This document shows, one piece after another, positions 1 to 11,720 of a DNA stretch of 64,000 bases. Position numbers and translations under genes: made by a program. A model generated the notes under the pieces. It was not told the DNA's origin and made no database searches. It saw nothing but the letters and a program-made list of their open reading frames with translations. Origin of the DNA: Escherichia coli (GTDB lineage: Bacteria > Pseudomonadota > Gammaproteobacteria > Enterobacterales > Enterobacteriaceae); NCBI RefSeq assembly GCF_041886205.1, contig NZ_CP169029.1, one strand, 5' to 3'. The first letter of the stretch is position 1. Each line of letters opens with the position of its first letter.

Positions 1-1313
1 GCGATCTGGCCTCTAACATCCTGCTGGATATTGGTACGCTTTATCTTTTGAAGTTTTATACCGACGTTCTGGGGCTACCTGGCACCTATGGCGGCATTAT
101 CTTTTTGATCTCGAAATTCTTTACCGCCTTTACCGATATGGGAACCGGCATCATGTTGGATTCCCGGCGTAAGATTGGCCCGAAAGGTAAGTTCCGCCCT
201 TTCATTTTGTACGCGTCATTCCCGGTCACCTTATTGGCAATCGCTAACTTTATCGGCACACCGTTCGATGTCACTGGTAAAACGGTGATGGCCACTATTC
301 TGTTTATGCTCTACGGGCTGTTTTTCAGCATGATGAACTGCTCCTATGGCGCGATGGTGCCTGCTATTACCAAAAACCCCAACGAGCGCGCATCACTGGC
401 GGCATGGCGTCAGGGAGGCGCTACGCTGGGCCTGCTGCTGTGCACGGTGGGATTCGTGCCGGTTATGAATCTTATCGAAGGTAATCAGCAACTTGGCTAT
501 ATCTTCGCCGCCACGCTGTTTTCACTGTTCGGCCTGCTGTTTATGTGGATCTGCTACTCGGGCGTGAAAGAGCGTTATGTCGAAACCCAACCAGCCAATC
601 CGGCGCAAAAGCCTGGCCTGCTGCAATCTTTCCGCGCAATTGCCGGTAACCGCCCACTGTTCATTCTGTGCATTGCCAACCTCTGCACTTTAGGGGCGTT
701 TAACGTCAAGCTCGCCATCCAGGTCTATTACACCCAGTACGTACTTAACGATCCCATCCTGTTGTCATATATGGGATTTTTCAGCATGGGCTGTATTTTC
801 ATCGGTGTGTTCCTGATGCCTGGCGCAGTCAGGCGTTTTGGTAAGAAGAAGGTCTATATCGGCGGCCTGCTGATTTGGGTGCTGGGCGATCTGCTCAACT
901 ATTTCTTCGGCGGCGGTTCGGTCAGCTTCGTGGCGTTCTCCTGCCTGGCGTTCTTTGGCTCAGCGTTTGTTAACAGCCTGAACTGGGCGCTGGTTTCCGA
1001 CACCGTCGAGTACGGCGAGTGGCGCACCGGCGTGCGTTCGGAAGGAACGGTCTACACCGGTTTTACCTTCTTTCGCAAAGTGTCTCAGGCGCTGGCTGGT
1101 TTCTTCCCCGGCTGGATGCTGACGCAAATTGGCTATGTGCCGAACGTCGCACAGGCTGACCACACCATTGAAGGGTTACGCCAGTTGATCTTCATCTATC
1201 CAAGCGCACTGGCGGTAGTCACCATTGTGGCGATGGGTTGCTTCTACAGCCTGAACGAGAAGATGTATGTCCGCATTGTGGAAGAGATAGAAGCCCGTAA
1301 ACGCACGGCGTAA
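1..1313 (+). CDS. yihP: MFS/GPH-family sugar transporter, 5'-truncated by window edge (sulfoquinovose cluster member)
   Basis: ORF 48..1313 stays open to the window start in the same frame; paralogous to the next ORF (shared LKFYTD...GGIIFL...FTAFTDM...GPKGKFRPF motifs); position upstream of yihO-ompL. Confidence 0.8.
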   Translation, partial: DLASNILLDIGTLYLLKFYTDVLGLPGTYGGIIFLISKFFTAFTDMGTGIMLDSRRKIGPKGKFRPFILYASFPVTLLAIANFIGTPFDVTGKTVMATILFMLYGLFFSMMNCSYGAMVPAITKNPNERASLAAWRQGGATLGLLLCTVGFVPVMNLIEGNQQLGYIFAATLFSLFGLLFMWICYSGVKERYVETQPANPAQKPGLLQSFRAIAGNRPLFILCIANLCTLGAFNVKLAIQVYYTQYVLNDPILLSYMGFFSMGCIFIGVFLMPGAVRRFGKKKVYIGGLLIWVLGDLLNYFFGGGSVSFVAFSCLAFFGSAFVNSLNWALVSDTVEYGEWRTGVRSEGTVYTGFTFFRKVSQALAGFFPGWMLTQIGYVPNVAQADHTIEGLRQLIFIYPSALAVVTIVAMGCFYSLNEKMYVRIVEEIEARKRTA

Positions 1314-6891: not shown

Positions 6892-8715
6892 TTAATCGTC
6901 TTTCGGTGCGCGGTTGGCGCGACGACGATCGTTTTCAGTCAGGTGACGTTTACGAATACGGATAGAGGTCGGAGTCACTTCTACCAGTTCGTCATCATCG
7001 ATGAACTCCAGAGCTTGTTCCAGAGTCATGCGGATAGGCGGAACCAGAACAACGGCTTCGTCAGTACCGGAAGCACGCATGTTGGTCAGTTTCTTACCAG
7101 TCAGGCAGTTTACCGTCAGGTCGTTAGAGCGGCTGTGAATACCGATAATCTGACCTTCGTAAACTTCTGCACCGTGACCGAGGAACAGCTTACCGCGATC
7201 CTGCAGACCGAACAGCGCGAACGCGACCGCTTTACCCTGACCGTTAGAGATCAGTACGCCGTTCTGACGCTGACCCACTTCACCCGGACGTACGTCGTCG
7301 TAGTGGCTGAAGGTGGAGTACAGCAGACCAGTACCGGAAGTCATGGTCATGAACTCAGAACGGAAGCCAATCAGACCACGGCTTGGGATCACGTAGTCGA
7401 GACGTACGCGGCCTTTACCGTCTGGATTCATGTTTTTCAGGTCGCCTTTACGTTCGCCCAGCGCCTGCATTACAGAACCCTGATGCTGTTCTTCAACGTC
7501 CAGAGTCACGTTTTCATACGGCTCTTGTTTACGACCGTCGATTTCACGGAAGATAACTTTCGGACGGGATACCGCCAGTTCGAAACCTTCACGACGCATG
7601 TTTTCGATCAGAACAGACAGGTGTAGTTCGCCACGACCAGAAACGCGGAACGCATCAGCGTCTTCGGTTTCTTCTACGCGCAGCGCAACGTTGTGTACCA
7701 GTTCTTTGTTCAGACGATCCAGGATCTGACGAGACGTTACGAACTTACCTTCTTTACCGCAGAACGGCGAGGTGTTAACGCAGAAGAACATAGAAACGGT
7801 CGGCTCATCAACGGAGAGTGCCGGCAGCGCTTCAACGTTTTGCGTGTCGCAAACGGTGTCAGAAATGTTCAGTTCGCCCAGGCCCGTGATCGCCACGATA
7901 TCGCCAGCTTCCGCCAGATCGGTTTCGATACGTTCCAGACCGAGGTGGCCCAGCACTTTACCGACTTTCGCGTTACGGGTTTTGCCTTCGCTATCGATGA
8001 TAGTGACCTGCTGGTTCGGCTTCACTTTACCGCGCTTGATGCGGCCAATGCCGATAACGCCAACATAGCTGTTGTAATCGAGCTGAGAAATCTGCATCTG
8101 GAACGGACCGTCAAGGTCAACGTCCGGCGCAGGAACGTGATCAACAATCGCCTGATACAGCGGGGTCATGTCTTCCGCCATATCTTCGTGGTCCAGACCC
8201 GCGATACCGTTCAGCGCAGAAGCGTAAACGATCGGGAAGTCCAGCTGCTCGTCGGTCGCGTCGAGGTTAACGAACAGATCGAATACCTGATCCACAACCC
8301 AATCAGGACGCGCGCCAGGGCGGTCAACTTTGTTGATAACAACAATCGGCTTCAGGCCGTAAGCAAACGCTTTTTTGGTTACGAAGCGCGTTTGCGGCAT
8401 CGGGCCGTCAAATGCGTCAACCACCAGCAGCACTGAGTCTACCATGGACATTACACGTTCAACTTCACCACCGAAGTCGGCGTGCCCCGGGGTATCAACG
8501 ATGTTGATACGGTAATCATTCCATTTGATAGCGGTGTTTTTCGCGAGGATGGTAATCCCACGCTCTTTCTCCAAATCGTTGGAGTCCATCACGCGCTCTT
8601 GGGTTTCGGCACGAGAGTCGAACGTACCGGATTGTTGGAGCAGCTTGTCTACCAGGGTGGTTTTACCATGGTCTACGTGCGCGATGATGGCGATATTACG
8701 CAATTTTTCGATCAC
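6892..8715 (-). CDS. typA: ribosome-associated translational GTPase BipA/TypA
   Basis: 607-aa ORF with GTPase motifs ([18 protein letters not shown]); divergent from glnA. Confidence 0.95.
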
Positions 8716-8866
8716 AACTTTGCCTCAGGCATTAGAAATAGCGCGTTATTGTACACGGATTAATCGCACTACAAAACAGGATCACAAACATCCTCCGCAA
8801 ACAAGTATTGCAGAGTCCCTTTGTGATCGCTTTCACGGAGCATAAAAAGGGTTATCCAAAGGTCAT

Positions 8867-8947
8867 TGCACCAATATGGTGCTTAATGTTTCCATTGAAG
8901 CACTATATTGGTGCAACATTCACATCATGGTGCAGCCCTTTTGCACG
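8867..8947 (+). promoter_or_regulatory. NtrC (GlnG) enhancer sites upstream of glnA (TGCACCAatatGGTGCt, GCACtatatTGGTGCA and a third partial site)
   Basis: matches to the TGCACCA-N3-TGGTGCA dyad at about 8867..8883, 8900..8916 and 8929..8947. Confidence 0.75.
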
Positions 8948-8988
8948 ATGTTAAGCATGATAACGCCTTTTAGGGGCAATTTAAAAGT

Positions 8989-9004
8989 TGGCACAGTTTT
9001 CGCT
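8989..9004 (+). promoter_or_regulatory. sigma-54 promoter glnAp2 (TGGCAC-N5-TCGCT)
   Basis: -24 GG / -12 GC element TTGGCACAGTTTTCGCT about 85 bp upstream of the glnA ATG. Confidence 0.8.
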
Positions 9005-9087
9005 TTATCTTTTTTACGGCGACACGGCCAAAATAATTGCAGATTTCGTTACCACGACGACAATGACCAATCCAGGAGAGTTAAAGT

Positions 9088-10497
9088 ATGTCCGCTGAAC
9101 ACGTACTGACGATGCTGAACGAGCACGAAGTGAAGTTTGTTGATTTGCGCTTCACCGATACCAAAGGTAAAGAACAGCACGTCACTATCCCTGCTCATCA
9201 GGTGAATGCTGAATTCTTCGAAGAAGGCAAAATGTTTGACGGCTCCTCGATTGGCGGCTGGAAAGGCATTAACGAATCCGACATGGTGCTGATGCCAGAC
9301 GCATCCACCGCAGTGATTGACCCGTTCTTCGCCGACTCCACCCTGATTATCCGTTGCGACATCCTTGAACCTGGCACCCTGCAAGGCTATGACCGTGACC
9401 CGCGCTCTATTGCGAAGCGCGCCGAAGATTACCTGCGTTCCACTGGCATTGCCGACACCGTACTGTTCGGGCCAGAACCTGAATTCTTCCTGTTCGATGA
9501 CATCCGTTTCGGATCATCTATCTCCGGTTCCCACGTTGCTATCGACGATATCGAAGGCGCATGGAACTCCTCCACCCAATATGAAGGTGGTAACAAAGGT
9601 CACCGTCCGGCAGTGAAAGGCGGTTACTTCCCGGTTCCACCGGTAGACTCGGCTCAGGATATTCGTTCTGAAATGTGTCTGGTGATGGAACAGATGGGTC
9701 TGGTGGTTGAAGCCCATCACCACGAAGTAGCGACTGCTGGTCAGAACGAAGTGGCTACCCGCTTCAATACCATGACCAAAAAAGCTGACGAAATTCAGAT
9801 CTACAAATATGTTGTGCACAACGTAGCGCACCGCTTCGGTAAAACTGCGACCTTTATGCCAAAACCGATGTTCGGTGATAACGGCTCCGGTATGCACTGC
9901 CACATGTCGCTGTCTAAAAACGGCGTTAACCTGTTCGCGGGCGACAAATACGCAGGTCTGTCTGAGCAGGCGCTGTACTACATTGGCGGCGTAATCAAAC
10001 ACGCTAAAGCGATTAACGCCCTGGCAAACCCGACCACCAACTCTTATAAGCGTCTGGTCCCGGGCTACGAAGCACCGGTAATGCTGGCTTACTCTGCACG
10101 CAACCGTTCTGCGTCTATCCGTATTCCGGTGGTTTCTTCTCCGAAAGCACGTCGTATCGAAGTACGTTTCCCGGATCCGGCGGCTAACCCGTACCTGTGC
10201 TTTGCTGCCCTGCTGATGGCCGGTCTTGATGGTATCAAGAACAAGATCCATCCGGGCGAAGCCATGGACAAAAACCTGTATGACCTGCCGCCAGAAGAAG
10301 CGAAAGAGATCCCACAAGTTGCAGGCTCTCTGGAAGAAGCACTGAACGAGCTGGATCTGGACCGCGAGTTCCTGAAAGCCGGTGGCGTGTTCACGGATGA
10401 AGCGATCGATGCGTACATCGCTCTGCGTCGCGAAGAAGATGACCGCGTGCGTATGACTCCGCATCCGGTAGAGTTTGAGCTGTACTACAGCGTCTAA
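9088..10497 (+). CDS. glnA: glutamine synthetase
   Basis: 469-aa ORF, recognised GlnA sequence including the adenylylation region. Confidence 0.97.
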
Positions 10498-10584
10498 TAG
10501 TTGAAGTTGTACTACCCGGCGCAACAACGCCGGGATTTAGTTGCCGTGGAAACTTTCAGCCCATCTCTGCATGGGCTTTTTTCT
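10498..10584 (+). ncRNA. glnZ: glnA 3'UTR, candidate 3'UTR-derived sRNA (GlnZ-like) ending at the glnA terminator
   Basis: 3'UTR with hairpin CCCGGCG..CGCCGGG (10515..10534) and terminator GCCCATCTCTGCATGGGCTTTTTT (10558..10584); sRNA assignment is from literature, not visible in sequence. Confidence 0.35.
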
Positions 10585-10670
10585 CCGTCAATTCTCTGAT
10601 GCTTCGCGCTTTTTATCCGTAAAAAGCTATAATGCACTAAAATGGTGCAACCTGTTCAGGAGACTGCTTT

Positions 10671-11720
10671 ATGGCAACAGGCACGCAGCCCGATGCTGGG
10701 CAGATCCTCAACTCGCTGATTAACAGTATTTTGTTAATCGATGACAACCTGGCGATCCATTACGCCAACCCCGCCGCGCAACAACTGCTCGCCCAAAGCT
10801 CCCGCAAATTGTTTGGTACACCGTTACCGGAACTGTTGAGCTACTTCTCATTAAATATCGAGCTGATGCAAGAAAGTCTGGAGGCGGGGCAAGGTTTTAC
10901 CGATAACGAAGTGACGCTGGTCATCGACGGGCGCTCGCATATCCTTTCTGTGACGGCCCAGCGTATGCCGGACGGCATGATCCTGCTGGAGATGGCACCG
11001 ATGGATAACCAGCGCCGCTTAAGTCAGGAACAGCTACAGCACGCCCAGCAGGTTGCTGCCCGTGATTTAGTGCGCGGCCTGGCACATGAGATTAAAAATC
11101 CGCTTGGCGGTTTACGTGGCGCGGCGCAGCTGCTCAGCAAAGCGTTACCTGACCCATCACTACTCGAATATACCAAAGTGATTATCGAACAGGCGGACCG
11201 GCTGCGAAATCTGGTCGACCGTCTGTTGGGGCCGCAGCTGCCCGGTACGCGCGTTACCGAAAGTATTCACAAAGTGGCTGAACGCGTGGTAACGCTGGTG
11301 TCGATGGAACTGCCGGACAACGTGCGGTTGATTCGTGATTACGATCCCAGCCTGCCGGAACTGGCGCACGACCCGGATCAAATTGAACAGGTCTTGCTGA
11401 ATATTGTGCGCAATGCGCTACAGGCGCTGGGGCCGGAAGGCGGTGAAATCATTCTGCGTACCCGCACCGCGTTTCAACTGACCTTACACGGCGAGCGCTA
11501 CCGGCTGGCGGCGCGAATTGATGTGGAAGATAACGGGCCGGGCATTCCGCCTCATTTGCAGGATACGCTGTTTTACCCGATGGTCAGCGGCCGCGAAGGT
11601 GGCACCGGGCTTGGCTTATCCATCGCCCGTAATTTGATTGATCAGCATTCAGGCAAAATTGAATTTACCAGTTGGCCAGGTCATACCGAGTTCTCGGTTT
11701 ACCTGCCTATCAGGAAATAA
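10671..11720 (+). CDS. glnL: nitrogen-regulation sensor histidine kinase NtrB
   Basis: 349-aa ORF with H-box (..[11 protein letters not shown]..) and ATPase motifs. Confidence 0.95.

What the first reader, a model, noticed from the sequence alone, without database searches (positions are those of the whole stretch)
10498..10584. glnA 3'UTR with two hairpins: candidate GlnZ-type 3'UTR-derived sRNA
The 173-bp glnA-glnL spacer begins with an 87-nt 3'UTR containing a GC hairpin (CCCGGCG-caacaa-CGCCGGG) and then a canonical terminator (GCCCATCTCTGCATGGGC + U6). In enterobacteria a nitrogen-responsive sRNA (GlnZ) has been reported to be processed from the glnA 3'UTR; this sequence has the expected architecture. 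glnL then needs its own promoter in 10585..10670.
Basis: partly seen in the sequence, partly recalled or inferred. Interest (0 to 1): 0.35.

Follow-up and report, generated by a model that had tools for sequence, protein, structure and literature searches.

The report
Known GlnZ/EsrF small RNA after glnA
The stretch after the E. coli glutamine synthetase gene is the already published 85-nt GlnZ small RNA (also called EsrF in O157:H7), which is cut from the glnA message under nitrogen limitation and represses sucA, glnP and aceE; it is real but ordinary.

Summary
The window is E. coli (100% over 25 kb to strain 6EVA). [quoted passage not shown] It is 85/85 identical to the interval in O157:H7 EDL933 that RACE mapped as the sRNA EsrF, later called O157-type or Class I GlnZ. 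That element is the published seed UUGCCGUGGAAA at 10541..10552, in the linker between the hairpins. In the window's own genome this linker pairs with the validated sites in sucA, glnP and aceE. The seed plus terminator lies directly after glnA in 110 other Enterobacterales species, with a variable stop-to-seed spacer. The first hairpin belongs to that variable spacer and is not a family hallmark. Among 5,426 complete E. coli genomes, 3,853 carry this form or its insertion derivative, and 1,571 carry the K-12 form. glnL has its known NtrC-operated promoter at 10628..10649. Corrections: the UTR is 85 nt, not 87, and the seed matters more than hairpin 1. Expression in this strain was not tested. 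Novelty: already known. Interest: low.

The parts
8867..8915 (+). Two high-affinity NtrC (NRI) enhancer sites upstream of glnA (8867..8883 and 8899..8915).
   Evidence: They match TGCACCANNNTGGTGCA with 1 and 2 mismatches. Only three sites in the 64-kb window have 2 or fewer mismatches. The region is near-identical to the K-12 glnA control region.
8989..9004 (+). glnAp2, the sigma-54 promoter (TGGCAC-N5-TCGCT). It drives the glnA mRNA from which the sRNA is derived.
   Evidence: The pattern matches with 1 mismatch. The site differs from K-12 glnAp2 by one spacer base. Its role is taken from Miyakoshi 2022.
9088..10497 (+). glnA coding sequence (glutamine synthetase), stop TAA at 10495..10497, followed in frame by TAG.
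   Evidence: ORF list and the RefSeq annotation of the identical strain 6EVA.
10470..10476 (+). Candidate upstream RNase E site AGAG|UUU, with cleavage inferred between 10473 and 10474, inside the glnA 3' end.
   Evidence: This is the only strict RN|WUU motif in 10460..10515. Miyakoshi 2022 reports an upstream RNase E site before the stop codon in K-12 that is conserved in Salmonella. The assignment is inferred and was not tested.
10498..10582 (+). The 85-nt glnA 3'UTR, which is the O157-type / Class I GlnZ sRNA (synonym EsrF).
   Evidence: It is 85/85 identical to the RACE-mapped EDL933 interval.
10515..10534 (+). Hairpin 1, with a 7-bp all-G-C stem and a CAACAA loop. It lies in the lineage-variable spacer between the stop codon and the seed.
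   Evidence: Folds. It is absent from K-12 and from the 25 species whose stop-to-seed spacer is 25 nt or less. A related ACCCGGCG...CGCCGGG hairpin occurs in Enterobacter (L014, L033, L111).
10532..10540 (+). GGGAUUUAG, the motif that Jia et al. 2021 reported as essential for EsrF binding to the flhB 5'UTR.
   Evidence: Motif location and the paper. Its complement CTAAATCCC lies at -93..-85 of flhB in K-12 and in strain 6EVA. The GGG is inside the hairpin 1 stem, with P(unpaired) about 0.01.
10541..10552 (+). The GlnZ seed UUGCCGUGGAAA. The extended pairing region is 10535..10555.
   Evidence: It matches the published seed exactly and occurs once in the window. The core CGUGGA is predicted to be unpaired, with P about 0.9 to 1.0.
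10558..10582 (+). Rho-independent terminator: a 7-bp stem, a CUCUGC loop and a U6 tail. It is the presumed Hfq-binding 3' end.
   Evidence: It is 100% identical to K-12. The GCCCAU..AUGGGC stem and a U-tract of exactly six occur in 110 of 110 species.
10628..10649 (+). The glnLp -10 box TATAAT (10628..10633), overlapped by the NtrC operator TGCACTAAAATGGTGCA (10633..10649).
   Evidence: Direct reading of the sequence. The NtrC consensus matches with 1 mismatch. The region is identical to K-12. glnLp is sigma-70 dependent and NtrC-repressed per the papers cited.
10671..11720 (+). glnL (ntrB) coding sequence.

Best explanation
Window 10498..10582 encodes the O157-type (Class I) form of the Hfq-dependent sRNA GlnZ, first published as EsrF. 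Under nitrogen limitation, NtrC~P activates the sigma-54 promoter glnAp2. Transcription runs through glnA and mostly stops at the intrinsic terminator at 10558..10582. RNase E, with Hfq, cuts the mRNA at or near the stop codon and releases an RNA of about 85 nt. Its single-stranded linker (AUUUAGUUGCCGUGGAAACUU, seed 10541..10552) pairs with the 5'UTRs of sucA, glnP and aceE and represses them. This holds back 2-oxoglutarate for glutamate and glutamine synthesis and limits glutamine import. Shown here are the sequence identity, the anatomy, the target complementarity and the conservation. Taken from the literature on the identical sequence are expression, low-nitrogen induction, Hfq and RNase E dependence, and target repression. 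Inferred is that the same holds in this particular strain.
For: The window is 85/85 (401/401 with flanks) identical to EDL933, and the RACE coordinates map exactly. The published seed is present exactly once. The fold gives hairpin, linker, then terminator plus U6. In strain 6EVA, which is 100% identical to the window over 25 kb, the linker pairs with three targets. These are sucA at -48..-27 (-20.4 kcal/mol), glnP at -22..-11 just before the SD (-18.4), and aceE at -105..-91, which covers the published C-99 (-20.8). Shuffled linkers reach these energies in 6 to 41 of 1000 trials, and 0.3 to 1.3% of 16,250 background windows reach them. glnAp2 and the NtrC enhancer sites are intact. A scan of 100,044 species genomes for seed plus terminator returned 120 loci, and 110 of them lie directly after glnA with glnL about 80 to 100 nt downstream. 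Positions the pattern did not require are also nearly invariant: UU before GCCG in 110/110, G in 107/110, and U6 in 110/110. Experiments on the identical O157 sequence support function. A northern blot shows induction by low nitrogen or glutamine. EsrF represses glnP, sucA and aceE, with compensatory mutations for glnP. The O157 allele placed in K-12 makes the sRNA.
Against: No expression data exist for this strain. The duplex energies alone are only moderately specific. In the full-length 85-nt fold, the flanks of the seed (UAGUUGC and AACU) are partly paired, so mean P(unpaired) of the seed is 0.61 and only CGUGGA is fully open. The downstream RNase E site defined in K-12 is not conserved here, and only the upstream RN|WUU motif is present. 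Jia et al. 2021 reported the opposite regulation and a primary, TEX-resistant transcript.
Confidence: 0.92

Rival explanations
1. This is the EsrF model of Jia et al. 2021. The 85-nt RNA is an independent primary transcript from its own promoter inside the glnA 3' end. NtrC represses it, so high ammonium induces it. Its main job is to activate flhB, and through it motility and virulence, by pairing GGGAUUUAG with the flhB 5'UTR.
For: The motif GGGAUUUAG is at 10532..10540. Its complement lies at -93..-85 of flhB in K-12 and in the window's strain, with a predicted duplex of -19.8 kcal/mol. Jia et al. report TEX resistance, glnA-promoter independence and REMSA binding.
Against: Two later studies on O157 and EDL933 found induction by low nitrogen, not high, and processing from the glnA mRNA. 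No sigma-70-like promoter is called on the + strand anywhere in 8700..11000. That scan also misses the real glnLp, so this point is weak. The GGG of the motif is buried in the all-G-C stem of hairpin 1, with P(unpaired) about 0.01. The motif is absent from the K-12 type and destroyed in the O111 type. flhB activation could still coexist with GlnZ function.
Confidence: 0.12
2. The UTR is only a transcription terminator and mRNA-stabilising end for glnA. The linker has no trans-acting role.
For: The terminator is canonical. Miyakoshi 2022 reports that deleting it slightly lowers GlnA.
Against: An element of about 20 nt upstream of the terminator is nearly invariant across 110 species, while the rest of the UTR varies freely from 7 nt to more than 300 nt. 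A terminator alone would not require that. Published seed and target compensatory mutations argue against it as well.
Confidence: 0.02
3. Hairpin 1 is itself a partial terminator or attenuator. It would control how much transcription reaches the seed and glnL.
For: The simple scan flags CCCGGCGCAACAACGCCGGG followed by ATTTAGTT as terminator-like.
Against: The tail AUUUAGUU is a poor U-tract. RACE and northern blots show the 85-nt species ending at the second hairpin. Hairpin 1 is missing from K-12 and from the species with the shortest stop-to-seed spacers, with no reported effect on GlnA or NtrC levels when alleles are swapped.
Confidence: 0.04

Closest known systems
GlnZ, O157 type (Miyakoshi et al. 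2022, eLife, PMC9731577), also called Class I GlnZ (Walling et al. 2022), also called EsrF (Jia et al. 2021, mBio, PMC8092317)
   Same: Everything that can be tested matches. The 85 nt are identical. The position directly after the glnA stop is the same. U41 is present (window 10538), the seed is at UTR nt 44..55, and the terminator and target complementarity match.
   Different: Nothing differs at the sequence level. The host is a commensal-type human faecal isolate (strain 6EVA), not O157. RefSeq/PGAP leaves the interval unannotated in this and the other listed genomes.
GlnZ of E. coli K-12 (b4836, 194 nt; K-12 type / Class III)
   Same: It has the same seed and an identical terminator and downstream glnLp region. 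It has the same targets and the same glnAp2/NtrC control.
   Different: In K-12 the seed sits right after the stop codon, and an insertion that Walling et al. describe as a REP sequence separates it from the terminator. K-12 lacks hairpin 1 and the GGGAUUUAG motif. The K-12 form is in 1,571 of 5,426 genomes, against 3,853 for the window's form plus its derivative.
Rfam RF02766, Ysr49 (Yersinia sRNA 49)
   Same: Ysr49 is the whole glnA 3'UTR of Yersinia pestis and Y. ruckeri. It ends in the same seed plus terminator module. The window aligns to that 3' module.
   Different: The window scores 34.1 bits against a gathering score of 95. The 5' two-thirds of Ysr49 has no counterpart here.
Other 3'UTR-derived Hfq sRNAs released by RNase E, such as SdhX and SroC, which the GlnZ papers name as comparators
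   Same: They follow the same logic. The parental mRNA's own terminator serves as the sRNA 3' end, and the seed lies just upstream. Output is coupled to the parental operon's promoter.
   Different: The parental genes, seeds and regulons are different. No sequence relationship was tested.

Membership tests
GlnZ (glnA 3'UTR-derived sRNA) | It lies on the glnA strand directly after the glnA stop codon and upstream of glnL. | tested here: met
   glnA ends at 10497, the UTR is 10498..10582, and glnL starts at 10671.
GlnZ (glnA 3'UTR-derived sRNA) | It carries the conserved seed 5'-UUGCCGUGGAAA-3'. | tested here: met
   An exact match lies at 10541..10552 and is unique in the window. The seed is as published.
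GlnZ (glnA 3'UTR-derived sRNA) | It has a conserved Rho-independent terminator with a U-tract. In Class I and II this lies immediately 3' of the seed. | tested here: met
   The stem is at 10558..10577 and U6 ends at 10582, 5 nt after the seed. The same module is found in 110 species.
GlnZ (glnA 3'UTR-derived sRNA) | The boundaries coincide with an experimentally mapped GlnZ or EsrF transcript. | tested here: met
   The EDL933 RACE interval 4939965..4940049 is 85/85 identical to the window.
GlnZ (glnA 3'UTR-derived sRNA) | The seed is complementary to the validated sites in sucA and glnP, and in E. coli also aceE. | tested here: met
   In strain 6EVA the sites are sucA -48..-27, glnP -22..-11 and aceE -105..-91, at -18.4 to -20.8 kcal/mol.
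GlnZ (glnA 3'UTR-derived sRNA) | Transcription comes from the NtrC-activated sigma-54 promoter glnAp2. | tested here: met
   The promoter and two enhancer sites are present and near-identical to K-12. This holds at the sequence level only, because activity was not measured.
GlnZ (glnA 3'UTR-derived sRNA) | [quoted passage not shown] | not testable with these tools
   Only a candidate RN|WUU motif at 10473/10474 can be pointed to. The experimental basis is in K-12 and Salmonella.
GlnZ (glnA 3'UTR-derived sRNA) | A stable small transcript accumulates under nitrogen limitation. | not testable with these tools
   This has been shown for the identical sequence in O157 and EDL933 by northern blot. 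It has not been shown for this strain.
EsrF as defined by Jia et al. 2021 | It is an 85-nt RNA with the motif GGGAUUUAG, complementary to flhB -82..-97. | tested here: met
   The motif is at 10532..10540. CTAAATCCC lies at -93..-85 of flhB in K-12 and 6EVA.
EsrF as defined by Jia et al. 2021 | It has its own promoter within the glnA 3' end. | tested here: inconclusive
   No sigma-70-like site is called on the + strand. However, the same scan misses the genuine glnLp.
Rfam RF02766 Ysr49 | The covariance-model score reaches the gathering threshold of 95 bits. | tested here: not met
   The window scores 34.1 bits, and only the seed and terminator align. Y. pestis scores 159.7 bits and Y. ruckeri 125.2 bits.

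The most novel reading that the evidence does not exclude
The O157-type RNA may carry two regulatory faces. One is the universal GlnZ seed, which represses sucA, glnP and aceE. The other is a lineage-specific face made of the 3' arm of hairpin 1 plus the linker (GGGAUUUAG), which acts on flhB. The second face exists only in the contiguous 85-nt allele, which 2,756 of 5,426 complete E. coli genomes carry at 100% identity. It is absent from the K-12 type and destroyed by the insertion in the O111 type. Strains would then differ in whether nitrogen status is wired to flagellar export. The extended hairpin 1 helix, which partly sequesters UAGUUGC, could act as the switch between the two faces.
Probability: 0.12. 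Interest if true: 0.35.

Novelty: already known. Interest (0 to 1): 0.1.

Why it matters
For the genome scan, it shows that reading the sequence alone recovered a genuine regulatory RNA that automatic annotation leaves blank. PGAP lists no feature under this interval in the strains examined, and Rfam 15 has no family that reaches threshold here. Biologically nothing new follows. GlnZ already links nitrogen limitation to TCA-cycle flux and glutamine import. The by-products have minor curation value. These are an allele census across 5,426 genomes, the near-invariance of the seed-terminator module across the 110 Enterobacterales species sampled, and the observation that Rfam's Ysr49 is the Yersinia counterpart.

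Tried and rejected
(1) The Rfam search of 8500..11500 found no GlnZ family. It gave only a sub-threshold Ysr49 hit, which turned out to be informative, and chance miRNA-type hits. K-12 glnZ likewise has no Rfam family, only weak naRNA4 and Ysr49 hits.

(2) The pairwise MAFFT alignment of the window against K-12 scattered the seed across gaps because the two alleles differ by large indels. I read the relationship from the sequences directly instead.

(3) The sigma-70 promoter scan calls neither an esrF promoter nor the real glnLp. It therefore cannot decide the question of a primary transcript versus a processed one.

(4) The duplex energies were tested against shuffled linkers and 16,250 background windows. 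They are good but not unique, falling in the top 0.3 to 1.3%. The argument therefore rests on recovering the published sites, not on energy alone.

(5) Folding the full EsrF against the whole flhB leader with duplexfold gave a meaningless long duplex of -48 kcal/mol. I replaced it with a local test.

(6) Hairpin 1 was considered as a family hallmark and as an attenuator. I rejected both because it is absent from K-12 and from the species with the shortest spacers.

(7) The opposite strand was considered. Only a 41-aa GTG ORF (10512..10637, -) overlaps it, with nothing to support it.

(8) Two Python calls failed because loci are stored several per file.

Full report
**What is in the sequence.** The glnA ORF ends with TAA at 10495..10497, followed in frame by TAG. 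glnL begins at 10671, so the spacer is 173 nt. Hairpin 1 (CCCGGCG/CAACAA/CGCCGGG) lies at 10515..10534. A canonical intrinsic terminator (AGCCCAT/CTCTGC/ATGGGCT) lies at 10558..10577, followed by six T up to 10582. Both hairpins appear in the MFE and centroid structures of the isolated RNA. The fold energy is -28.3 kcal/mol, z = -2.27, and 5 of 200 shuffles fold as well. The UTR up to the end of the U-tract is 85 nt, not 87.

**Where the window comes from.** The first 25 kb of the window are 100% identical to E. coli strain 6EVA, a human faecal isolate. Its RefSeq annotation places typA, glnA, glnL and glnG as expected and annotates nothing in the glnA-glnL spacer. In K-12 MG1655 the corresponding interval carries the curated ncRNA glnZ (b4836, 194 nt).

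**Identity with a published RNA.**
- Miyakoshi et al. 2022 divide E. coli glnA 3'UTRs into a K-12 type (197 nt), an O157 type (85 nt) and an O111 type (230 nt).
- Walling et al. 2022 call the O157 form Class I GlnZ and equate it with EsrF.
- Jia et al. 2021 mapped EsrF in EDL933 by RACE. It is exactly 85 nt, running from the T next to the glnA stop to the terminator T, at coordinates 4939965..4940049.
- In the EDL933 RefSeq record the glnA CDS ends at 4940050, so that interval abuts the stop codon.
- The EDL933 interval is 85/85 identical to window 10498..10582, and 401/401 identical with flanks.

The published seed 5'-UUGCCGUGGAAA-3' lies at 10541..10552, in the 23-nt linker between the two hairpins. 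It occurs once in the window. U41 of the UTR, whose change to G weakens aceE regulation, is window 10538 and is a U here. In the partition function of the 85-nt RNA the core CGUGGA is essentially unpaired. The flanks are less accessible. UAGUUGC is partly held by an extension of hairpin 1, and AACU by the 5' end. This is a prediction and was not probed.

**Targets.** I located sucA, glnP and aceE in strain 6EVA itself and computed duplexes with the linker 10535..10557.

| Target | Site relative to start codon | Energy (kcal/mol) | Note |
|---|---|---|---|
| glnP | -22..-11 | -18.4 | just upstream of the SD, as published |
| aceE | -105..-91 | -20.8 | spans the published C-99 |

Shuffled linkers reach these energies in 6 to 41 of 1000 trials, and 0.3 to 1.3% of 16,250 background 60-nt windows do. 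The energies are supportive rather than decisive. The weight lies in recovering the three experimentally validated sites.

**Upstream control.** The sigma-54 promoter glnAp2 (TGGCACAGTTTTCGCT, 8989..9004) and the two strong NtrC sites (8867..8883 and 8899..8915) are present. These two, with the site in glnLp, are the only three NtrC-consensus matches in the window with two or fewer mismatches.

**The glnL promoter.** TATAAT at 10628..10633 is overlapped by TGCACTAAAATGGTGCA at 10633..10649. The whole stretch from the terminator into glnL is identical to K-12. In K-12, glnLp is a sigma-70 promoter repressed by NtrC, and the terminator upstream of it is of moderate strength.

**Population census.** The 85-nt query matches 3,853 of 5,426 complete E. 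coli genomes. Of these, 2,756 match at 100% identity. Roughly a quarter of the rows sampled at even steps down the ranking are two-piece matches spanning 230 nt, which is the O111 type. The K-12 glnZ matches the other 1,571 genomes. The window's allele is thus the commonest E. coli form. In the O111 type, the extra 145 nt sit immediately after hairpin 1.

**Other species.** One scan of the species-representative genome collection used the pattern GCCGTGGAAA-N3-9-GCCC-N8-16-GGGCTTTT.
- 110 of the loci lie directly downstream of a glnA C-terminus. glnL begins about 80 to 100 nt further on in most of those with enough flanking sequence.
- The remaining loci were either cut off by the end of the sequence held or lay in unrelated phyla and are likely chance hits.
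- The genera include Citrobacter, Enterobacter, Klebsiella, Pantoea, Erwinia, Serratia, Yersinia, Pectobacterium, Dickeya and Plesiomonas.
- Positions the pattern did not constrain are also nearly fixed. UU before GCCG is found in 110/110, the preceding G in 107/110, a U-rich run lies upstream of that, the stem interior is AU..AU, and the U-tract is exactly six in 110/110.
- The stop-to-seed distance ranges from 15 to 322 nt, with a median of 78 nt. All 85 spacers of 25 nt or more fold at -8 kcal/mol or better, which was not compared with shuffled spacers.

Hairpin 1 therefore belongs to a variable spacer. A clearly related ACCCGGCG...CGCCGGG hairpin exists in Enterobacter (L014, L033, L111). 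K-12 and the species with the shortest spacers lack it. The pattern selects for the seed and terminator, so only the unconstrained positions and the genomic context count as evidence.

**Mechanism.** The best-supported account is the published one. glnAp2 drives the glnA mRNA under nitrogen limitation. The terminator forms the 3' end. RNase E together with Hfq releases the UTR. The released RNA, not the full mRNA, represses sucA, glnP and aceE by pairing through the seed. For the O157 allele specifically, the literature shows three things. Northern blots show induction by glutamine or nitrogen starvation. EsrF represses glnP, sucA and aceE, with compensatory mutants for glnP. The O157 allele transplanted into K-12 produces the sRNA without changing GlnA or NtrC levels. 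The exact cleavage site in this allele is uncertain. The only strict RN|WUU motif near the stop is AGAG|UUU at 10473/10474, and the downstream K-12 site is not conserved.

**The literature conflict.** Jia et al. 2021 described the same RNA as a primary transcript, repressed by NtrC and induced by high ammonium, that activates flhB through GGGAUUUAG.
- The motif is at 10532..10540. Its complement lies at -93..-85 of flhB both in K-12 and in strain 6EVA, so the pairing is possible on paper.
- Both later studies found the opposite regulation.
- The GGG lies inside the all-G-C stem of hairpin 1.
- The promoter scan sees no + strand promoter, though it also misses glnLp.

I treat flhB regulation as an unconfirmed, allele-specific extra and not as the main function.

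**Comparison and membership.** Every testable defining feature of GlnZ is met. These are position, seed, terminator, mapped boundaries, target complementarity and the glnAp2/NtrC context. Hfq and RNase E dependence and actual expression in this strain cannot be tested here. The window does not qualify for Rfam's Ysr49, scoring 34.1 bits against a gathering score of 95. Ysr49 does reach threshold on the glnA 3'UTR of Yersinia pestis and Y. ruckeri and ends in the same module. It is evidently the Yersinia counterpart. Neither GlnZ paper mentions it in its main text.

**Verdict.** Interest is low. What remains is annotation, since the interval is unannotated in RefSeq outside K-12 and has no Rfam family, and the unresolved flhB claim.

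Noticed in passing
window 8797..8904 (-): There is a full-length match to Rfam ES222 sRNA (RF02755; 133 bits against a gathering score of 62). It lies in the divergent typA(bipA)-glnA spacer on the typA strand and overlaps the NtrC enhancer sites. RefSeq does not annotate it in strain 6EVA.
   Followed up: no
window 8943..8957: The low-affinity NtrC site about 65 nt upstream of the glnAp2 start reads TGCACGATGTTAAGCA here, against TGCACGATGGTGCGCA in K-12, so the right half-site is lost. The 71-nt stretch around this site matches at 99% or better in 2,066 of 5,426 complete E. coli genomes, including O157:H7. A further 3,190 genomes fall in the 90 to 95% identity band, where the listed examples sit at 94.4%. 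It might alter the upper limit of glnAp2 activity and hence GlnZ output.
   Followed up: partly
L110 3863..3986 (Yersinia pestis); L125 781..906 (Y. ruckeri): Rfam Ysr49 (RF02766) coincides with the entire glnA 3'UTR in these Yersinia species. It ends in the GlnZ seed plus terminator. It therefore appears to be the Yersinia GlnZ orthologue. The main texts of the two GlnZ papers do not mention it.
   Followed up: partly
L007 61..290 (E. coli EC21, O111-type allele): The 230-nt O111-type UTR equals the window's UTR plus 145 extra nt inserted right after hairpin 1. The insertion removes the GGGAUUUAG (EsrF-flhB) motif. The seed flank also has a 1-nt deletion (GGAAATTTC). Miyakoshi et al. describe a 98-nt insertion flanked by AGGUUCAAA repeats. 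The difference in size was not resolved.
   Followed up: partly
L011..L130 (110 glnA 3'UTRs): The U-tract after the terminator is exactly six T in all 110 species. Most species use a GCCCAUC-UUCG/UCCG-GAUGGGC stem-loop, whereas Escherichia has a 6-nt CUCUGC loop. The Plesiomonas locus L021 has compensatory AU-to-GC changes in the stem.
   Followed up: partly
L001 324..384 (K-12 glnZ): The insertion that separates seed and terminator in K-12 gives a weak, sub-threshold hit on both strands to Rfam naRNA4 (RF02564; 30.4 and 26.6 bits against a gathering score of 59.5). Walling et al. describe this insertion as a REP sequence.
   Followed up: no
window 10495..10500: glnA ends with tandem in-frame stop codons, TAA then TAG. 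The K-12 allele has TAA followed by GTG instead.
   Followed up: no
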